Source of the DNA: Escherichia coli
GTDB taxonomy: Bacteria; Pseudomonadota; Gammaproteobacteria; Enterobacterales; Enterobacteriaceae
Length of the DNA stretch: 39,980 nt
Reading direction: 5' to 3' (one strand)
Assembly: GCF_003334405.1 (NCBI RefSeq)
Contig: NZ_QOWM01000025.1
The notes beneath the pieces were generated by a model. That model was not told the origin of the DNA. It saw only the letters and a program-made list of their open reading frames with translations, and ran no database searches. Shown here piece by piece: positions 34,482-39,405 of this stretch; positions within the stretch are counted from its first letter, which is position 1, and every line of letters starts with the position of its first letter. Both the position numbers and the translations under genes were made by a program.

Positions 34482-35549
34482 ATGGATAAGAGTAAGCGCC
34501 ATCTGGCGTGGTGGGTTGTCGGGTTACTCGCGGTGGCGGCTATCGTGGCGTGGTGGCTGTTGCGCCCGGCAGGTGTGCCGGAAGGCTTTGCTGTCAGTAA
34601 TGGGCGCATTGAAGCGACGGAAGTGGATATTGCCAGCAAAATTGCCGGGCGTATCGACACCATTCTGGTGAAAGAAGGCCAGTTTGTTCGCGAAGGTGAA
34701 GTGCTGGCGAAGATGGATACTCGCGTGTTGCAGGAACAGCGACTGGAAGCCATCGCGCAAATCAAAGAGGCACAAAGCGCCGTTGCTGCCGCGCAGGCTT
34801 TGCTGGAGCAACGACAAAGCGAAACTCGTGCCGCACAGTCGCTGGTTAATCAACGCCAGGCAGAACTGGACTCCGTAGCAAAACGTCATACGCGTTCCCG
34901 TTCACTGGCCCAACGAGGGGCTATTTCTGCGCAACAGCTGGATGACGATCGCGCCGCCGCTGAGAGCGCCCGAGCTGCGCTGGAATCGGCGAAAGCTCAG
35001 GTATCGGCTTCTAAAGCGGCTATAGAAGCGGCACGCACCAATATCATTCAGGCGCAAACCCGCGTCGAAGCGGCACAAGCCACTGAACGGCGCATTGCCG
35101 CAGATATCGATGACAGCGAACTGAAAGCCCCGCGTGACGGACGCGTGCAGTATCGGGTTGCCGAGCCAGGCGAAGTGCTGGCGGCAGGCGGTCGGGTGCT
35201 GAATATGGTCGATCTCAGCGACGTCTATATGACTTTCTTCCTGCCAACCGAACAGGCGGGCACGCTGAAACTGGGCGGTGAAGCCCGGCTGATCCTCGAT
35301 GCCGCGCCAGATCTGCGTATTCCTGCAACCATCAGTTTTGTCGCCAGTGTCGCCCAGTTCACGCCAAAAACCGTCGAAACCAGCGATGAACGGCTGAAAC
35401 TGATGTTCCGCGTCAAAGCGCGTATCCCACCGGAATTACTCCAGCAGCATCTGGAATATGTCAAAACCGGTTTGCCGGGCGTAGCGTGGGTGCGGGTGAA
35501 TGAAGAACTTCCGTGGCCTGACGACCTCGTGGTGAGGTTGCCGCAATGA
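34482..35549 (+). CDS. yhiI: HlyD-family membrane fusion protein (355 aa)
   Basis: N-terminal TM anchor ([21 protein letters not shown]) then coiled-coil rich periplasmic domain; stop overlaps the rbbA start (ATGA). Confidence 0.88.
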
Positions 35550-38281
35550 CGCATCTGGAACTGGTTCCCGTCCCGCCTGTCGCGCAACTGGCGGGCGTGA
35601 GCCAGCATTATGGAAAAACCGTTGCGCTGAACAATATCACTCTCGATATTCCGGCCCGCTGTATGGTCGGGCTGATTGGCCCGGACGGCGTCGGGAAGTC
35701 GAGCTTGTTGTCGTTGATTTCCGGTGCCCGCGTCATTGAACAGGGCAATGTGATGGTGCTGGGCGGCGATATGCGCGACCCGAAGCATCGCCGCGACGTC
35801 TGCCCGCGCATCGCCTGGATGCCGCAGGGGCTGGGCAAAAACCTCTACCACACCTTGTCGGTGTATGAAAACGTCGATTTTTTCGCTCGCCTGTTCGGTC
35901 ACGACAAAGCGGAGCGGGAAGTGCGAATCAATGAGCTGCTGACCAGCACCGGGTTAGCACCGTTTCGCGATCGTCCGGCAGGGAAACTCTCCGGCGGGAT
36001 GAAGCAAAAACTTGGGCTGTGCTGCGCGTTAATCCACGACCCGGAACTGTTGATCCTTGATGAGCCAACAACGGGGGTTGACCCGCTCTCCCGCTCCCAG
36101 TTCTGGGATCTGATCGACAGTATTCGCCAGCGGCAGAGCAATATGAGCGTGCTGGTCGCCACCGCCTATATGGAAGAGGCCGAACGCTTCGACTGGCTGG
36201 TAGCGATGAATGCCGGAGAAGTGCTGGCAACTGGCAGCGCCGAAGAGCTACGGCAGCAAACGCAAAGCGCTACGCTGGAAGAAGCATTTATAAATCTGTT
36301 ACCGCAAGCGCAACGCCAGGCGCATCAGGCGGTAGTGATCCCACCGTATCAACCTGAAAACGCAGAGATTGCCATCGAAGCGCGCGATCTGACCATGCGT
36401 TTTGGTTCCTTCGTTGCCGTTGATCACGTTAATTTCCGCATTCCACGCGGGGAGATTTTTGGTTTTCTTGGTTCGAACGGCTGCGGTAAATCCACCACCA
36501 TGAAAATGCTCACCGGACTGCTGCCCGCCAGCGAAGGTGAGGCGTGGCTGTTCGGGCAACCGGTTGATCCAAAAGATATCGATACCCGCCGTCGGGTGGG
36601 CTATATGTCGCAGGCGTTTTCGCTCTATAACGAACTCACCGTGCGGCAAAACCTTGAGTTACATGCCCGTTTGTTTCACATCCCGGAAGCGGAAATTCCC
36701 GCAAGAGTGGCTGAAATGAGCGAGCGTTTTAAGCTCAACGACGTTGAAGATATTCTGCCGGAGTCATTGCCGCTCGGCATTCGCCAGCGGCTTTCGCTGG
36801 CGGTGGCGGTGATTCATCGCCCGGAGATGTTAATCCTCGATGAGCCTACTTCTGGTGTCGATCCGGTGGCGAGGGATATGTTCTGGCAGTTGATGGTCGA
36901 TCTCTCGCGCCAGGACAAAGTGACTATCTTCATCTCCACCCACTTTATGAACGAAGCGGAACGTTGCGACCGCATCTCACTGATGCACGCCGGAAAAGTG
37001 CTTGCCAGCGGTACACCGCAGGAACTGGTTGAGAAACGCGGAGCCGCCAGTCTGGAAGAGGCATTTATCGCCTATTTGCAGGAAGCGGCAGGGCAGAGCA
37101 ACGAAGCCGAAGCGCCGCCCGTGGTACACGACACCACCCACGCGCCGCGTCAGGGATTTAGCCTGCGCCGTCTGTTTAGCTACAGCCGCCGCGAAGCGCT
37201 GGAACTGCGACGCGATCCAGTACGTTCGACGCTGGCGCTGATGGGAACGGTGATCCTGATGCTGATAATGGGTTACGGCATCAGTATGGATGTGGAAAAC
37301 CTGCGCTTTGCGGTGCTCGACCGCGACCAGACCGTCAGTAGCCAGGCGTGGACACTCAACCTCTCCGGTTCCCGTTACTTTATCGAACAGCCGCCGCTCA
37401 CCAGTTATGACGAGCTTGATCGTCGGATGCGTGCGGGCGATATCACGGTGGCGATTGAGATCCCGCCCAATTTCGGGCGCGATATCGCGCGTGGTACGCC
37501 TGTGGAACTCGGCGTCTGGATCGACGGAGCGATGCCGAGCCGTGCTGAAACGGTAAAAGGTTACGTGCAGGCCATGCACCAGAGCTGGTTACAGGATGTG
37601 GCGAGCCGACAATCGACACCCGCCAGCCAAAGCGGGCTGATGAATATTGAGACGCGCTATCGCTATAACCCGGACGTAAAAAGCCTGCCAGCGATTGTTC
37701 CGGCGGTGATCCCGCTTCTGCTGATGATGATCCCGTCAATGCTAAGCGCCCTTAGCGTGGTGCGGGAAAAAGAGCTTGGGTCGATTATCAACCTTTACGT
37801 GACCCCCACCACGCGTAGTGAATTTTTGCTTGGTAAACAGTTGCCATACATCGCGCTGGGGATGCTGAACTTTTTCCTGCTCTGCGGCCTGTCGGTGTTT
37901 GTGTTTGGCGTACCGCATAAAGGCAGTTTCCTGACGCTCACCCTGGCGGCGCTGCTGTATATCATCATTGCCACCGGAATGGGGCTGCTGATCTCCACCT
38001 TTATGAAAAGCCAGATTGCCGCCATTTTCGGAACGGCGATTATCACGTTGATCCCGGCGACACAGTTTTCCGGGATGATCGATCCGGTAGCTTCGCTGGA
38101 AGGGCCTGGACGTTGGATCGGCGAGGTTTACCCGACCAGTCATTTTCTGACTATCGCCCGCGGGACGTTCTCGAAAGCGCTGGATCTGACTGATTTGTGG
38201 CAACTTTTTATCCCGTTGCTGATAGCCATCCCGCTGGTGATGGGCTTAAGTATCCTGCTGCTGAAAAAACAGGAGGGATGA
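35546..38281 (+). CDS. rbbA: Ribosome-associated ATPase RbbA: tandem ABC ATPase domains fused to an ABC-2 permease domain (911 aa)
   Basis: Two Walker A motifs ([18 protein letters not shown]), two ABC signatures ([18 protein letters not shown]), two Walker B ([22 protein letters not shown]) and a C-terminal 6-TM permease domain. Confidence 0.92.
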
Positions 38282-39405
38282 TGCGCCATTTACGCAATAT
38301 TTTTAATCTGGGTATCAAAGAGTTGCGCAGTCTGCTCGGTGATAAAGCGATGCTGACGCTGATTGTCTTCTCGTTTACGGTGTCGGTGTATTCGTCAGCG
38401 ACCGTTACGCCAGGATCGTTGAACCTCGCGCCGATCGCCATTGCCGATATGGATCAATCGCAGTTATCGAACCGGATCGTTAACAGCTTCTATCGTCCGT
38501 GGTTTTTGCCACCGGAGATGATCACCGCCGATGAGATGGATGCCGGACTGGACGCCGGACGCTATACCTTCGCGATAAATATTCCGCCTAATTTTCAGCG
38601 TGATGTCCTCGCCGGACGCCAGCCGGATATTCAGGTGAACGTCGATGCCACGCGCATGAGCCAGGCATTTACCGGCAATGGGTATATCCAGAATATTATC
38701 AACGGTGAAGTGAACAGCTTTGTCGCGCGCTACCGTGATAACAGCGAACCGTTGGTATCGCTGGAAACCCGGATGCGCTTTAACCCGAACCTCGATCCCG
38801 CGTGGTTTGGCGGGGTGATGGCGATCATCAACAACATTACCATGCTGGCGATTGTATTGACCGGATCGGCGCTGATCCGCGAGCGTGAACACGGCACGGT
38901 GGAACACTTACTGGTGATGCCGATAACGCCGTTTGAGATCATGATGGCGAAGATCTGGTCGATGGGGCTGGTGGTGCTGGTGGTATCGGGATTATCGCTG
39001 GTGCTGATGGTGAAAGGTGTACTGGGCGTACCGATTGAAGGCTCGATCCCGCTGTTTATGCTGGGCGTGGCGCTCAGTCTGTTTGCCACCACGTCAATCG
39101 GCATTTTTATGGGGACGATAGCGCGTTCAATGCCGCAACTGGGGCTGCTGGTGATTCTGGTGCTGCTGCCGCTGCAAATGCTTTCCGGTGGTTCCACGCC
39201 GCGCGAAAGTATGCCGCAGATGGTGCAGGACATTATGCTGACCATGCCGACGACACACTTTGTTAGCCTCGCGCAGGCCATCCTCTACCGGGGTGCCGGA
39301 TTCGAAATCGTCTGGCCGCAGTTTCTGACGCTGATGGCAATTGGCGGCGCATTTTTCACCATTGCGCTGCTGCGATTCAGGAAGACGATTGGGACAATGG
39401 CGTAA
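38281..39405 (+). CDS. yhhJ: ABC-2 family transporter permease (374 aa)
   Basis: Start trimmed to [20 protein letters not shown]…; start ATG overlaps the rbbA stop by 1 nt (TGATG); polytopic C-terminal domain. Confidence 0.88.
   Translation: MRHLRNIFNLGIKELRSLLGDKAMLTLIVFSFTVSVYSSATVTPGSLNLAPIAIADMDQSQLSNRIVNSFYRPWFLPPEMITADEMDAGLDAGRYTFAINIPPNFQRDVLAGRQPDIQVNVDATRMSQAFTGNGYIQNIINGEVNSFVARYRDNSEPLVSLETRMRFNPNLDPAWFGGVMAIINNITMLAIVLTGSALIREREHGTVEHLLVMPITPFEIMMAKIWSMGLVVLVVSGLSLVLMVKGVLGVPIEGSIPLFMLGVALSLFATTSIGIFMGTIARSMPQLGLLVILVLLPLQMLSGGSTPRESMPQMVQDIMLTMPTTHFVSLAQAILYRGAGFEIVWPQFLTLMAIGGAFFTIALLRFRKTIGTMA

What the first reader, a model, noticed from the sequence alone, without database searches (positions are those of the whole stretch)
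34482..39405. yhiI-rbbA-yhhJ: translationally coupled MFP + fused ABC-ABC-permease + ABC-2 permease operon
yhiI/rbbA overlap by 4 nt (ATGA) and rbbA/yhhJ by 1 nt (TGATG), indicating tight translational coupling. RbbA has two nucleotide-binding domains followed by its own ABC-2 permease domain, and YhhJ is a second stand-alone ABC-2 permease. Together with the HlyD-type adaptor this looks like a tripartite-style exporter, whereas RbbA is described as a ribosome-associated ATPase; the dual role is unresolved.
Basis: partly seen in the sequence, partly recalled or inferred. Interest (0 to 1): 0.3.

Follow-up and report, generated by a model that had tools for sequence, protein, structure and literature searches.

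The report
E. coli yhiI-rbbA-yhhJ exporter operon
This is the already annotated E. coli yhiI-rbbA-yhhJ operon; its anatomy and its conservation across about 80 species indicate an adaptor-dependent ABC export pump, which weakens the older view of RbbA as a ribosome factor, but its substrate is still unknown.

Summary
yhiI (34482-35549), rbbA (35546-38281) and yhhJ (38281-39405) lie on the + strand with a 4-nt ATGA overlap and a 1-nt TGATG overlap. The DNA is 100% identical to E. coli chromosomes and present in 5414 of 5426 complete genomes.

- The operon is a gene-for-gene paralogue of E. coli ybhG-ybhF-ybhS-ybhR, with the YbhF-like and YbhS-like parts fused in RbbA.
- In 80 species, a periplasmic adaptor gene precedes rbbA in 68/68 evaluable loci, and a YhhJ-like permease follows in 76/76.
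- A TolC-family gene sits directly adjacent in 19/80.
- RbbA fails the tests for an ABC-F translation factor: it has a membrane domain in all orthologues, a short inter-NBD linker, and 41% identity to YbhF against 25% to EttA.

Three additions. One ATP site is degenerate across the family. The transcription unit starts earlier than reported, at a promoter at 34121-34148. It contains the validated upstream small ORF yhiY (34306-34419), in a leader that is published as Rho-terminated.

The genes are already known, so interest is low to moderate. Substrate, TolC use and the ribosome claim still need experiments.

The parts
34121..34148 (+). Sigma-70-type promoter, TAGACA-16 nt-TACTAT with an upstream TG
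   Evidence: This is the only promoter-like site upstream of or within the operon in the scan (sequence). The same hexamers are listed for yhiI-rbbA-yhhJ in the genomic SELEX set of constitutive RpoD promoters (PMC3946193). The -35 TAGACA and the 16-nt spacing are retained in Citrobacter werkmanii (L013).
34306..34419 (+). yhiY, a 37-aa upstream small ORF in the operon leader
   Evidence: Annotated in RefSeq. Translation start was mapped by ribosome profiling (10.1101/511675). The protein was detected by mass spectrometry at about 1000-3000 copies per cell (PMC12529367). yhiY-yhiI is listed among uORFs with a 3' end less than 200 nt downstream (10.1101/2020.07.18.207399). It is 86% conserved in E. 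albertii; Citrobacter keeps a 46-aa uORF with the same start.
34482..35549 (+). yhiI, a periplasmic adaptor (membrane fusion protein), 355 aa
   Evidence: Pfam HlyD_3, HlyD_D23 and Biotin_lipoyl_2. 30% identical to YbhG, E 4e-29. AlphaFold2 model with pLDDT 93.5: TM helix 3-27, hairpin helices 81-144 and 150-211, lipoyl and beta-barrel domains, no membrane-proximal domain. Best structural matches are EmrA in EmrAB-TolC, then MacA.
35546..35549 (+). ATGA overlap of the yhiI stop and the rbbA start
   Evidence: The same -4 junction occurs in 42 of 71 related species.
35546..38281 (+). rbbA, 911 aa: NBD1, NBD2 and an ABC-2 permease in one chain
   Evidence: NCBIfam NF033858 at 1596 bits against a cut-off of 1050. 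Pfam. AlphaFold2 model with pLDDT 86.6. Best whole-chain structural match is the type V exporter ABCH-9C.
35579..36265 (+). RbbA NBD1 (about aa 12-240)
   Evidence: Motifs: Walker A GPDGVGKS from residue 45, signature LSGGM from 148, Walker B LLILDEP from 168. The H-loop histidine is absent (T206-A207-Y208).. 40% identical to YbhF NBD1.
36368..37090 (+). RbbA NBD2 (about aa 275-515)
   Evidence: Motifs: Walker A GSNGCGKS from residue 309, degenerate signature LPLGI at 408-412, Walker B MLILDEP from 428, H-loop H466.. 41% identical to YbhF NBD2.
37097..37141 (+). Low-confidence, probably flexible tether between NBD2 and the permease (aa 518-532)
   Evidence: pLDDT below 50 in the model.
37163..38278 (+). 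RbbA permease domain (aa 540-911)
   Evidence: Layout: interfacial helix, TM1 at 558-578, a periplasmic loop domain at about 584-712, then TM2-TM6. Hydropathy, model, ABC2_membrane_3. Closer to YbhS (E 2e-52) than to YbhR (E 8e-34).
38271..38283 (+). Coupling junction: Shine-Dalgarno AGGAGG (38271-38276), rbbA stop TGA (38279-38281), yhhJ ATG (38281-38283)
   Evidence: The junction is -4 to +7 nt in 70 of 77 related species.
38281..39405 (+). yhhJ, the second ABC-2 permease, 374 aa
   Evidence: Matches the permease part of the RbbA profile at E 4.5e-42. Closer to YbhR (E 2.5e-32) than to YbhS (E 1.7e-21). A YhhJ-like gene follows rbbA in 76/76 evaluable species.
39412..39453 (+). Stable hairpin 7 nt after the yhhJ stop, followed by a T-rich stretch; the likely 3' end of the operon
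   Evidence: MFE -33.1 kcal/mol and z-score -3.46 against shuffles for the 106-nt stretch 39395-39500 that contains the hairpin. It was not picked up by the simple terminator scan, so its function is inferred.

Best explanation
The region encodes one transcription unit, yhiY-yhiI-rbbA-yhhJ, for an adaptor-dependent ABC exporter of the YbhGFSR type.

Proposed assembly. One RbbA chain supplies both ATPase domains and one six-helix ABC-2 (type V) membrane domain. One YhhJ chain supplies the second membrane domain. Together they make a complete 2-NBD + 2-TMD transporter at 1:1 stoichiometry, which the overlapping stop and start codons help to enforce. YhiI is anchored in the inner membrane by one N-terminal helix. 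It carries a hairpin of two helices of about 62-64 residues, roughly 95 A long. [quoted passage not shown] Proposed energetics. ATP turnover is expected mainly at the consensus site, built from NBD2 Walker A/B and H466 plus the NBD1 signature LSGGM. The other site lacks the H-loop histidine and faces the degenerate LPLGI signature, so it probably has a structural or regulatory role.

Proposed regulation. Expression starts at the promoter at 34121-34148. It is probably gated in the leader by Rho-dependent termination linked to translation of the yhiY uORF.

Shown versus inferred. Shown here: gene anatomy, domain content, paralogy, synteny, motif pattern and fold predictions. Inferred: complex formation, stoichiometry, the TolC partner, site asymmetry in catalysis and uORF-dependent control. 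The substrate is unknown. The fold class (ABCA/ABCG/ABCH-like) makes a lipidic or amphipathic compound a reasonable guess.
For: - Identity and annotation.
- Domains.
- One-to-one colinear paralogy with ybhG/F/S/R: YhiI-YbhG 30%; RbbA NBDs-YbhF 40-41%; RbbA TMD best to YbhS; YhhJ best to YbhR.
- Synteny in one-genome-per-species loci spanning Alpha-, Beta- and Gammaproteobacteria, Desulfobacterota-like MAGs, Myxococcota and Lentisphaerae: adaptor upstream in 68/68, permease downstream in 76/76, and all 70 full orthologues fused (830-958 aa).
- More distant fused homologues (33-58% identity) keep the same order in metagenome contigs. Two of those contigs have adjacent OEP genes.
- A TolC/NodT-family gene is directly adjacent on the same strand in 19/80 species. 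It is the only recurrent neighbour.
- A published Zymomonas HlyD-RbbA-permease-TolC operon is co-upregulated.
- YhiI model and fold matches to EmrA and MacA within TolC complexes.
- RbbA model: best match is the type V exporter ABCH-9C, and the tandem NBDs superpose on DppD/OppD at target-normalised TM-scores of 0.67-0.78.
- Family-wide motif asymmetry, shared with YbhF.
- A single promoter-like site and no excess of internal terminator-like sites. The promoter is independently reported.
- Leader regulation is from the literature.
Against: - No experiment shows that the three proteins form a complex, and no substrate or phenotype was found in the searched literature.
- E. coli has no outer-membrane factor gene in the operon, and 60 of the 80 species loci show none within 7 kb. 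TolC coupling is therefore inferred. OEP detection used only two query sequences.
- Published biochemistry attributes ribosome binding and stimulation of translation to RbbA. A truncated RbbA gave 1.3-2.1-fold effects in a reconstituted system in 2025.
- Structure models are single-chain predictions, not complexes.
- Junction distances depend on my choice of start codons.
Confidence: 0.8

Rival explanations
1. RbbA is primarily a ribosome-bound elongation factor, as first described. Its ATPase domains bind near the E site and promote release of deacylated tRNA. The membrane domain and the neighbouring genes are incidental to that role.
For: The literature is summarised. Truncated RbbA changed peptide yields 1.3-2.1-fold in a reconstituted translation system and competed with ABC-F proteins. 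NCBI still names the family 'ribosome-associated ATPase/putative transporter'.
Against: - RbbA carries a permease domain in all 70 full orthologues and always sits between an adaptor gene and a permease gene.
- Its NBDs are 40-41% identical to the transporter ATPase YbhF and 25% to EttA.
- The inter-NBD linker is short. The distance from Walker B of NBD1 to Walker A of NBD2 is 141 residues, against 173 in EttA. The model shows only two short helices there, not a long helical hairpin.
- Fold match to EttA has a target-normalised TM-score of 0.35-0.63, against 0.78 for DppD.
- The in vivo RbbA-YhjD paper was retracted in 2025. It never mentions yhiI or yhhJ and describes rbbA as encoded 'within its own operon'.
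Confidence: 0.07
2. RbbA is truly bifunctional. It is a membrane exporter whose cytoplasmic ATPase domains also contact ribosomes. This could happen in the intact protein at the membrane, or after cleavage in the flexible 518-532 tether releases a soluble NBD1-NBD2 fragment of about 57 kDa.
For: The tether between NBD2 and the permease is predicted to be disordered. A truncated soluble form is stable and active in vitro. The operon leader contains a translated uORF, so the system is linked to translation at least at the level of regulation.
Against: No evidence for a natural soluble fragment was found. There are no ABC-F-type ribosome-binding elements. Nothing in the conserved gene neighbourhood relates to translation.
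Confidence: 0.1
3. The system is an adaptor-dependent ABC machine that does not use an outer-membrane duct in E. coli. YhiI would act only as a periplasmic collar, and the substrate would be released into the periplasm or extracted from the inner membrane, as in adaptor-containing systems of monoderm bacteria.
For: There is no outer-membrane factor gene in the E. coli operon, and none within 7 kb in 60 of the 80 species loci. Adaptor homologues occur in Gram-positive bacteria; Spr0693 is among the fold matches.
Against: The long hairpin resembles those of the TolC-docking adaptors EmrA and MacA. All 80 loci come from diderm lineages. Outer-membrane factor genes overlap or abut the adaptor gene in many species, with gaps of -4 to +29 nt in 12 of the 16 upstream cases.
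Confidence: 0.15

Closest known systems
E. coli YbhG-YbhF-YbhS-YbhR (CecR-regulated ABC exporter)
   Same: Same gene order and same parts: adaptor, tandem-NBD ATPase and two ABC-2 permeases. Best reciprocal pairs are YhiI-YbhG, RbbA(NBDs)-YbhF, RbbA(TMD)-YbhS and YhhJ-YbhR. The genes are tightly coupled in both operons. Both share the missing NBD1 H-loop histidine and the LPLG signature in NBD2.
   Different: In RbbA the ATPase and the first permease form one polypeptide. RbbA and its close orthologues lack an insert of about 70 residues between the NBDs that YbhF has. There is no TetR-type regulator gene next to yhiI; instead there is a uORF-containing leader. Drug phenotypes are reported for YbhFSR and none for RbbA.
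MacAB-TolC and EmrAB-TolC tripartite pumps
   Same: Both have a periplasmic adaptor with an N-terminal anchor, a lipoyl domain, a long alpha-hairpin and a beta-barrel. EmrA and MacA are the best structural matches for YhiI. Like EmrA, YhiI has no membrane-proximal domain.
   Different: The inner-membrane transporter differs. MacB is an FtsX-type (type VII) ABC protein and EmrB is an MFS protein. RbbA and YhhJ are ABC-2 (type V) permeases. TolC use is demonstrated for those pumps and only inferred here.
ABC-F translation factors (EttA, Uup, YbiT, YheS) and fungal EF-3
   Same: Two ABC ATPase domains in one chain. Ribosome E-site binding is reported for RbbA in the literature.
   Different: ABC-F proteins are soluble and have a long helical inter-domain linker. 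RbbA has a permease domain, a short linker, 25% identity to EttA and a poorer fold match to EttA than to transporter ATPases.
Type V ABC exporters of eukaryotes (ABCA, ABCG, ABCH)
   Same: The NBDs score best against ABCA3, ABCA4 and ABCA1 among solved structures. The YhhJ permease matches the ABCH-9C membrane domain. The best whole-chain fold match is ABCH-9C, a lipid exporter. All have an extracytoplasmic domain after TM1.
   Different: Those transporters work without a periplasmic adaptor or an outer-membrane duct. Sequence identity is low (about 22%).

Membership tests
Adaptor-dependent ABC-2 exporter of the YbhGFSR type | Two ABC ATPase domains with Walker A, Walker B and signature motifs | tested here: met
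   Pfam finds two ABC_tran domains. Motifs were located. One site is degenerate, as it is in YbhF.
Adaptor-dependent ABC-2 exporter of the YbhGFSR type | Two homologous ABC-2 type permease domains, each with six TM helices and a large loop after TM1 | tested here: met
   ABC2_membrane_3 in RbbA at 569-903. YhhJ matches the RbbA permease profile at E 4.5e-42. Hydropathy, model, fold match to ABCH-9C.
Adaptor-dependent ABC-2 exporter of the YbhGFSR type | Co-operonic periplasmic adaptor with TM anchor, lipoyl domain, alpha-hairpin and beta-barrel | tested here: met
   An adaptor gene lies upstream of rbbA in 68/68 evaluable species.
Adaptor-dependent ABC-2 exporter of the YbhGFSR type | Orthology or paralogy to YbhG, YbhF, YbhS and YbhR, component by component | tested here: met
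   blastp E-values of 4e-29, 2e-72, 2e-52 and 2.5e-32, with colinear order.
Adaptor-dependent ABC-2 exporter of the YbhGFSR type | Physical complex and ATP-driven export of a substrate | not testable with these tools
   No experimental report was found.
Tripartite envelope-spanning pump (uses an outer-membrane factor such as TolC) | A dedicated or shared outer-membrane factor partner | tested here: inconclusive
   There is none in the E. coli operon. An OEP gene is directly adjacent on the same strand in 19/80 species, with one more nearby on the opposite strand. OEP genes also occur in loci L007 and L008 and in Zymomonas. TolC dependence in E. coli was not tested.
ABC-F translation factors | Soluble protein without a membrane domain | tested here: not met
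   A permease domain is present in E. coli RbbA and in all 70 full-length orthologues.
ABC-F translation factors | Long helical linker between the two ATPase domains that reaches the P-site tRNA. This definition comes from my own knowledge of EttA. | tested here: not met
   Walker B(1) to Walker A(2) is 141 residues, against 173 in EttA. The model shows only helices 244-251 and 254-259, then coil.
ABC-F translation factors | Closest sequence and fold relatives are ABC-F proteins | tested here: not met
   25% identity to EttA against 40-41% to YbhF. The top NCBIfam hits are transporter ATPases (DrrA, NodI, GldA). Foldseek target-normalised TM-score is 0.35-0.63 for EttA against 0.78 for DppD.
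ABC-F translation factors | Binds the ribosomal E site and modulates translation | not testable with these tools
   Reported for truncated RbbA in vitro. One in vivo study was retracted.
MacB/FtsX (type VII) ABC transporters | FtsX-type four-helix permease domain | tested here: not met
   Pfam and NCBIfam give only ABC-2 families for RbbA and YhhJ. A review places YbhFSR under the MacB family, which the domain content does not support.

The most novel reading that the evidence does not exclude
The ribosome link may be real but regulatory. In this reading, yhiY is a sensor uORF, as mdtU is for the spermidine exporter MdtJI. A small molecule that stalls ribosomes on yhiY would block Rho termination and switch on the pump that exports that molecule. 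The reported affinity of the RbbA ATPase domains for ribosomes would then be part of the same translation-stress circuit. If so, screening for compounds that de-attenuate a yhiY-yhiI reporter would reveal the long-missing substrate.
Probability: 0.1. Interest if true: 0.6.

Novelty: already known. Interest (0 to 1): 0.22.

Why it matters
RbbA is still cited and used as a ribosomal E-site factor, for example in a 2025 in vitro translation study. The genomic evidence gathered here says instead that it is the core of a conserved envelope exporter whose partners, YhiI and YhhJ, the ribosome literature ignores. Settling this would correct the annotation of a protein family found across many diderm bacteria. 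It would add one more adaptor-dependent ABC pump to the E. coli efflux inventory. It would also give a testable route to the substrate through the yhiY leader. In itself, the finding is a correct reading of annotated E. coli K-12 genes, not a discovery.

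Tried and rejected
- The word-indexed homologue search returned almost only E. coli copies and was uninformative for diversity. The 50%-cluster search was used instead.
- Rfam found no RNA family in 33900-39980 at E up to 1, so there is no known riboswitch or leader family.
- PADLOC gave only generic ABC-ATPase similarity to defence ATPases, which is not meaningful here.
- Clustering of flanking genes in about 65 loci, looking for substrate clues, found no recurrent neighbour except the outer-membrane factor.
- The simple terminator scan found internal sites only at the chance level, 8 against 6.5 +/- 2.9, so there is no evidence for internal termination.
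- An attempt to read the 2006 primary RbbA localisation paper failed because the service was busy. Statements on the original biochemistry therefore come from later papers that cite it.
- Type I secretion (HlyB/HlyD) and DevBCA were considered. The adaptor hits those families only below their cut-offs, and the permease type differs.

Full report
**1. Observation.**

The ORF list gives yhiI at 34482-35549, rbbA at 35546-38281, and an ORF that ends at 39405. Reading the junctions shows GCA-ATGA-CG at 35546-35549: the yhiI stop TGA overlaps the rbbA ATG by 4 nt. It also shows GGA-TGATG-CGC at 38279-38283: the rbbA stop TGA shares one base with the yhhJ ATG at 38281.

An AGGAGG lies at 38271-38276. 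A second in-frame ATG at 38278 would give a 4-nt overlap but leaves almost no spacing to that Shine-Dalgarno sequence.

The 5.9-kb stretch is 100% identical to several E. coli chromosomes. It is present at 80% coverage or more in 5414 of 5426 complete E. coli genomes. RefSeq annotates yhiY, yhiI, rbbA and yhhJ with exactly these coordinates, followed by an ISEc1-family transposase gene on the other strand.

**2. The parts.**

*RbbA.* It matches the curated family NF033858 at 1596 bits, against a cut-off of 1050. Pfam finds ABC_tran at 28-176 and 293-436 and ABC2_membrane_3 at 569-903.

*YhhJ.* It matches positions 539-906 of the RbbA profile at E 4.5e-42, so it is a paralogue of the RbbA membrane part.

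*YhiI.* It has HlyD_3, HlyD_D23 and Biotin_lipoyl_2 domains and one N-terminal hydrophobic helix.

*Topology.* RbbA has TM1 at about 559-583, a loop of about 130 residues, and then five more helices. YhhJ has the same layout. Because the ATPase domains are cytoplasmic, the loops must be periplasmic; this step is an inference.

*Solved structures.* None exists for any of the three proteins or for YbhFSR.

**3. Paralogy with ybhGFSR.**

I fetched ybhG, ybhF, ybhS and ybhR from MG1655 and compared them by blastp.

| Query | Best match | Identity | E-value | Alternative |
|---|---|---|---|---|
| YhiI | YbhG | 30% | 4e-29 | - |
| RbbA NBD1 | YbhF NBD1 | 40% | 1.3e-40 | - |
| RbbA NBD2 | YbhF NBD2 | 41% | 2.4e-72 | EttA, whole NBD region: 25% |
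| RbbA 531-911 | YbhS | 32% | 2e-52 | YbhR, E 8e-34 |
| YhhJ | YbhR | 24% | 2.5e-32 | YbhS, E 1.7e-21 |

The order adaptor, ATPase, permease 1, permease 2 is the same in both operons. RbbA therefore corresponds to YbhF fused to YbhS.

This gives a natural stoichiometry of one RbbA to one YhhJ, making a full transporter with two ATPase domains and two membrane domains. That fits the coupled translation.

**4. Conservation.**

*Distant fused homologues.* A search of 1.84 billion cluster representatives found full-length fused homologues at 33-58% identity. I looked up eight of them on their contigs.
- An ABC-2 permease gene follows within 14 nt in all seven evaluable cases.
- An adaptor gene precedes in six. 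Of the other two, one contig ends too early, and one shows only short unannotated ORFs upstream.
- Two contigs carry a TolC-family (PF02321) gene next to the cluster. In L007 it is divergent. In L008 it starts 6 nt after the permease.

*One genome per species.* A scan returned 80 loci from Alpha-, Beta- and Gammaproteobacteria, sulfate-reducer and Geobacter-like lineages, Corallococcus, a Lentisphaerae MAG and one Alistipes MAG. My ORF and blastp analysis gave the following results.
- An adaptor gene lies upstream in 68 of 68 loci with room.
- A YhhJ-like permease lies downstream in 75 of 76. The remaining locus, L031, has it 620 nt further on.
- All 70 full-length orthologues are fused, at 830-958 aa.
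- The adaptor/rbbA junction is -4 nt in 42 of 71 loci and within -4 to +15 nt in 63 of 71.
- The rbbA/permease junction is -4 to +7 nt in 70 of 77. These numbers depend on start codons chosen by homology extrapolation.

*Outer-membrane factor.* A TolC/NodT-family gene is directly adjacent on the same strand in 19 of the 80 loci. Sixteen lie upstream of the adaptor, eight of them at -4 nt, and three lie downstream of the permease. One more lies nearby on the opposite strand. In an all-against-all clustering of flanking genes, this was the only recurrent neighbour.

*Published parallel.* A Zymomonas mobilis study describes a HlyD-RbbA-permease-TolC operon as an efflux pump whose genes rise together.

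**5. Structure predictions.**

*YhiI.* With 74 sequences the model has pLDDT 93.5. It shows a TM helix at 3-27, a hairpin of helices 81-144 and 150-211, lipoyl and beta-barrel domains, and no membrane-proximal domain. At 1.5 A per residue the hairpin is about 95 A long, by my arithmetic. The best Foldseek matches are EmrA chains in the EmrAB-TolC complex (E about 5e-21), then MacA in MacAB-TolC.

*RbbA.* With 80 sequences the model has pLDDT 86.6. Residues 518-532, between NBD2 and the permease, have low confidence. The inter-NBD segment contains only two short helices. The best match over NBD2 plus the membrane domain is the insect lipid exporter ABCH-9C (E 8e-31). The tandem ATPase domains superpose on DppD at a target-normalised TM-score of 0.78. 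EttA structures give 0.35-0.63.

**6. ATP sites.**

NBD1 has Walker A GPDGVGKS, signature LSGGM and Walker B LLILDEP. At the H-loop it reads T206-A207-Y208 and has no histidine. NBD2 has Walker A GSNGCGKS, Walker B MLILDEP and H466, but its signature reads LPLGI.

In an ABC dimer each ATP is held by the Walker motifs of one domain and the signature of the other; this is established knowledge. Site 1 (NBD1 Walker motifs plus the NBD2 signature) is therefore degenerate, and site 2 is consensus.

The pattern holds in the distant fused homologues and in YbhF. L408, P409, L410, G411 and H466 are invariant or nearly invariant across 80 sequences. The catalytic glutamate is kept in both sites (E173 and E433), so the functional asymmetry is an inference.

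RbbA and its close orthologues also lack an insert of about 70 residues between the two ATPase domains. YbhF and the distant fused homologues have that insert.

**7. The ribosome claim.**

The features that define ABC-F factors were tested and not met.
- RbbA has a membrane domain.
- Its Walker B(1) to Walker A(2) distance is 141 residues, against 173 in EttA.
- Its nearest relatives are transporter ATPases.

The 2025 study that used RbbA as an E-site binder expressed a truncated protein without the membrane domain, because the full-length protein is unstable. It saw 1.3-2.1-fold effects. The 2011 paper linking RbbA to YhjD and 30S subunits was retracted in 2025 for image concerns. [quoted passage not shown]

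I cannot exclude ribosome binding. The comparative evidence makes it unlikely to be the primary role.

**8. Start and end of the unit.**

*Promoter.* The only promoter-like site upstream of or within the operon is TAGACA-16-TACTAT at 34121-34148. The same hexamers are listed for yhiI-rbbA-yhhJ among constitutive RpoD promoters found by genomic SELEX. They are retained in Citrobacter.

*The yhiY uORF.* Between the promoter and yhiI lies yhiY (34306-34419).
- Its start was mapped by ribosome profiling.
- Its product was detected by mass spectrometry at about 1000-3000 copies per cell.
- The yhiY-yhiI pair is listed as a candidate uORF-dependent regulator, alongside the worked example mdtU-mdtJI.

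*Conservation and sequence context of the leader.* yhiY is 86% conserved in E. albertii. Citrobacter keeps a 46-aa uORF with the same first residues. The most C-rich, G-poor stretch of the leader lies inside yhiY. No Rfam family matches.

*3' end.* A stable hairpin at 39412-39453, followed by a T-rich stretch, lies just after yhhJ.

**9. Verdict.**

The finding is a correct description of annotated E. coli genes, and its interpretation is supported. The best explanation is a YbhGFSR-type, adaptor-dependent ABC exporter that probably uses TolC, with one catalytic and one degenerate ATP site, expressed from a uORF-containing, Rho-sensitive leader.

Novelty is low because the genes, the family and the puzzle are all known. 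What remains open is the substrate, the outer-membrane partner, and whether the ribosome association means anything in vivo.

Noticed in passing
window 34121-34481: The operon leader was outside the finding's coordinates. It holds a gSELEX-supported promoter, the translated 37-aa uORF yhiY, and published evidence for Rho-dependent termination before or within yhiI. Three in-frame ATGs lie at 34300, 34306 and 34309; the second is the mapped start.
   Followed up: partly
window 38264-38283 (proteins P0001-P0010): A few E. coli assemblies carry a single RbbA-YhhJ ORF of 1272-1286 aa. In P0001 and P0004 the fusion reads ...LLLKNRRMMRHL..., which fits loss of one A from the A6 run at 38264-38269. 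Others shift frame earlier and scramble the last TM helix, so they may be sequencing errors or pseudogenes.
   Followed up: partly
window 39454-39980: Downstream of the hairpin there is a REP-like GCCGGATAAGGCG element. After it comes the 3' end of an ISEc1 (ISAs1-family, H-repeat) transposase gene, yhhI, on the minus strand. In the reference strain a pseudogene, an IS1 and rhsB follow.
   Followed up: no
RbbA residues about 240-275 (window 36263-36370); alignment: The E. coli RbbA clade has lost a domain of about 70 residues between NBD1 and NBD2. YbhF and the more distant fused homologues (P0139, P0141, P0148, P0160, P0176) keep it. Its role is unknown.
   Followed up: partly
literature: A major 2021 review lists YbhFSR under the MacB/FtsX family and names ybhF as the adaptor gene. 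Domain searches here show ABC-2 permeases, and the adaptor is YbhG.
   Followed up: partly
rbbA (window 35546-38281); PMC10926693: A genome-wide association study found core-genome SNPs in rbbA associated with natural resistance of E. coli strains to microcin C. This is a possible hint to substrate or physiological role.
   Followed up: no
loci L065, L089 and others: In about 6-7 of the species loci, genes that look like acetate kinase and phosphotransacetylase lie within a few kb of the cluster. I judged this from the sequences, not from a family search. It may be lineage-specific synteny.
   Followed up: no
window 32494-34116 and locus L001 1-3017: Two paralogous YhiJ/YhiL-family genes of unknown function lie immediately upstream of the operon on the same strand.
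   Followed up: no
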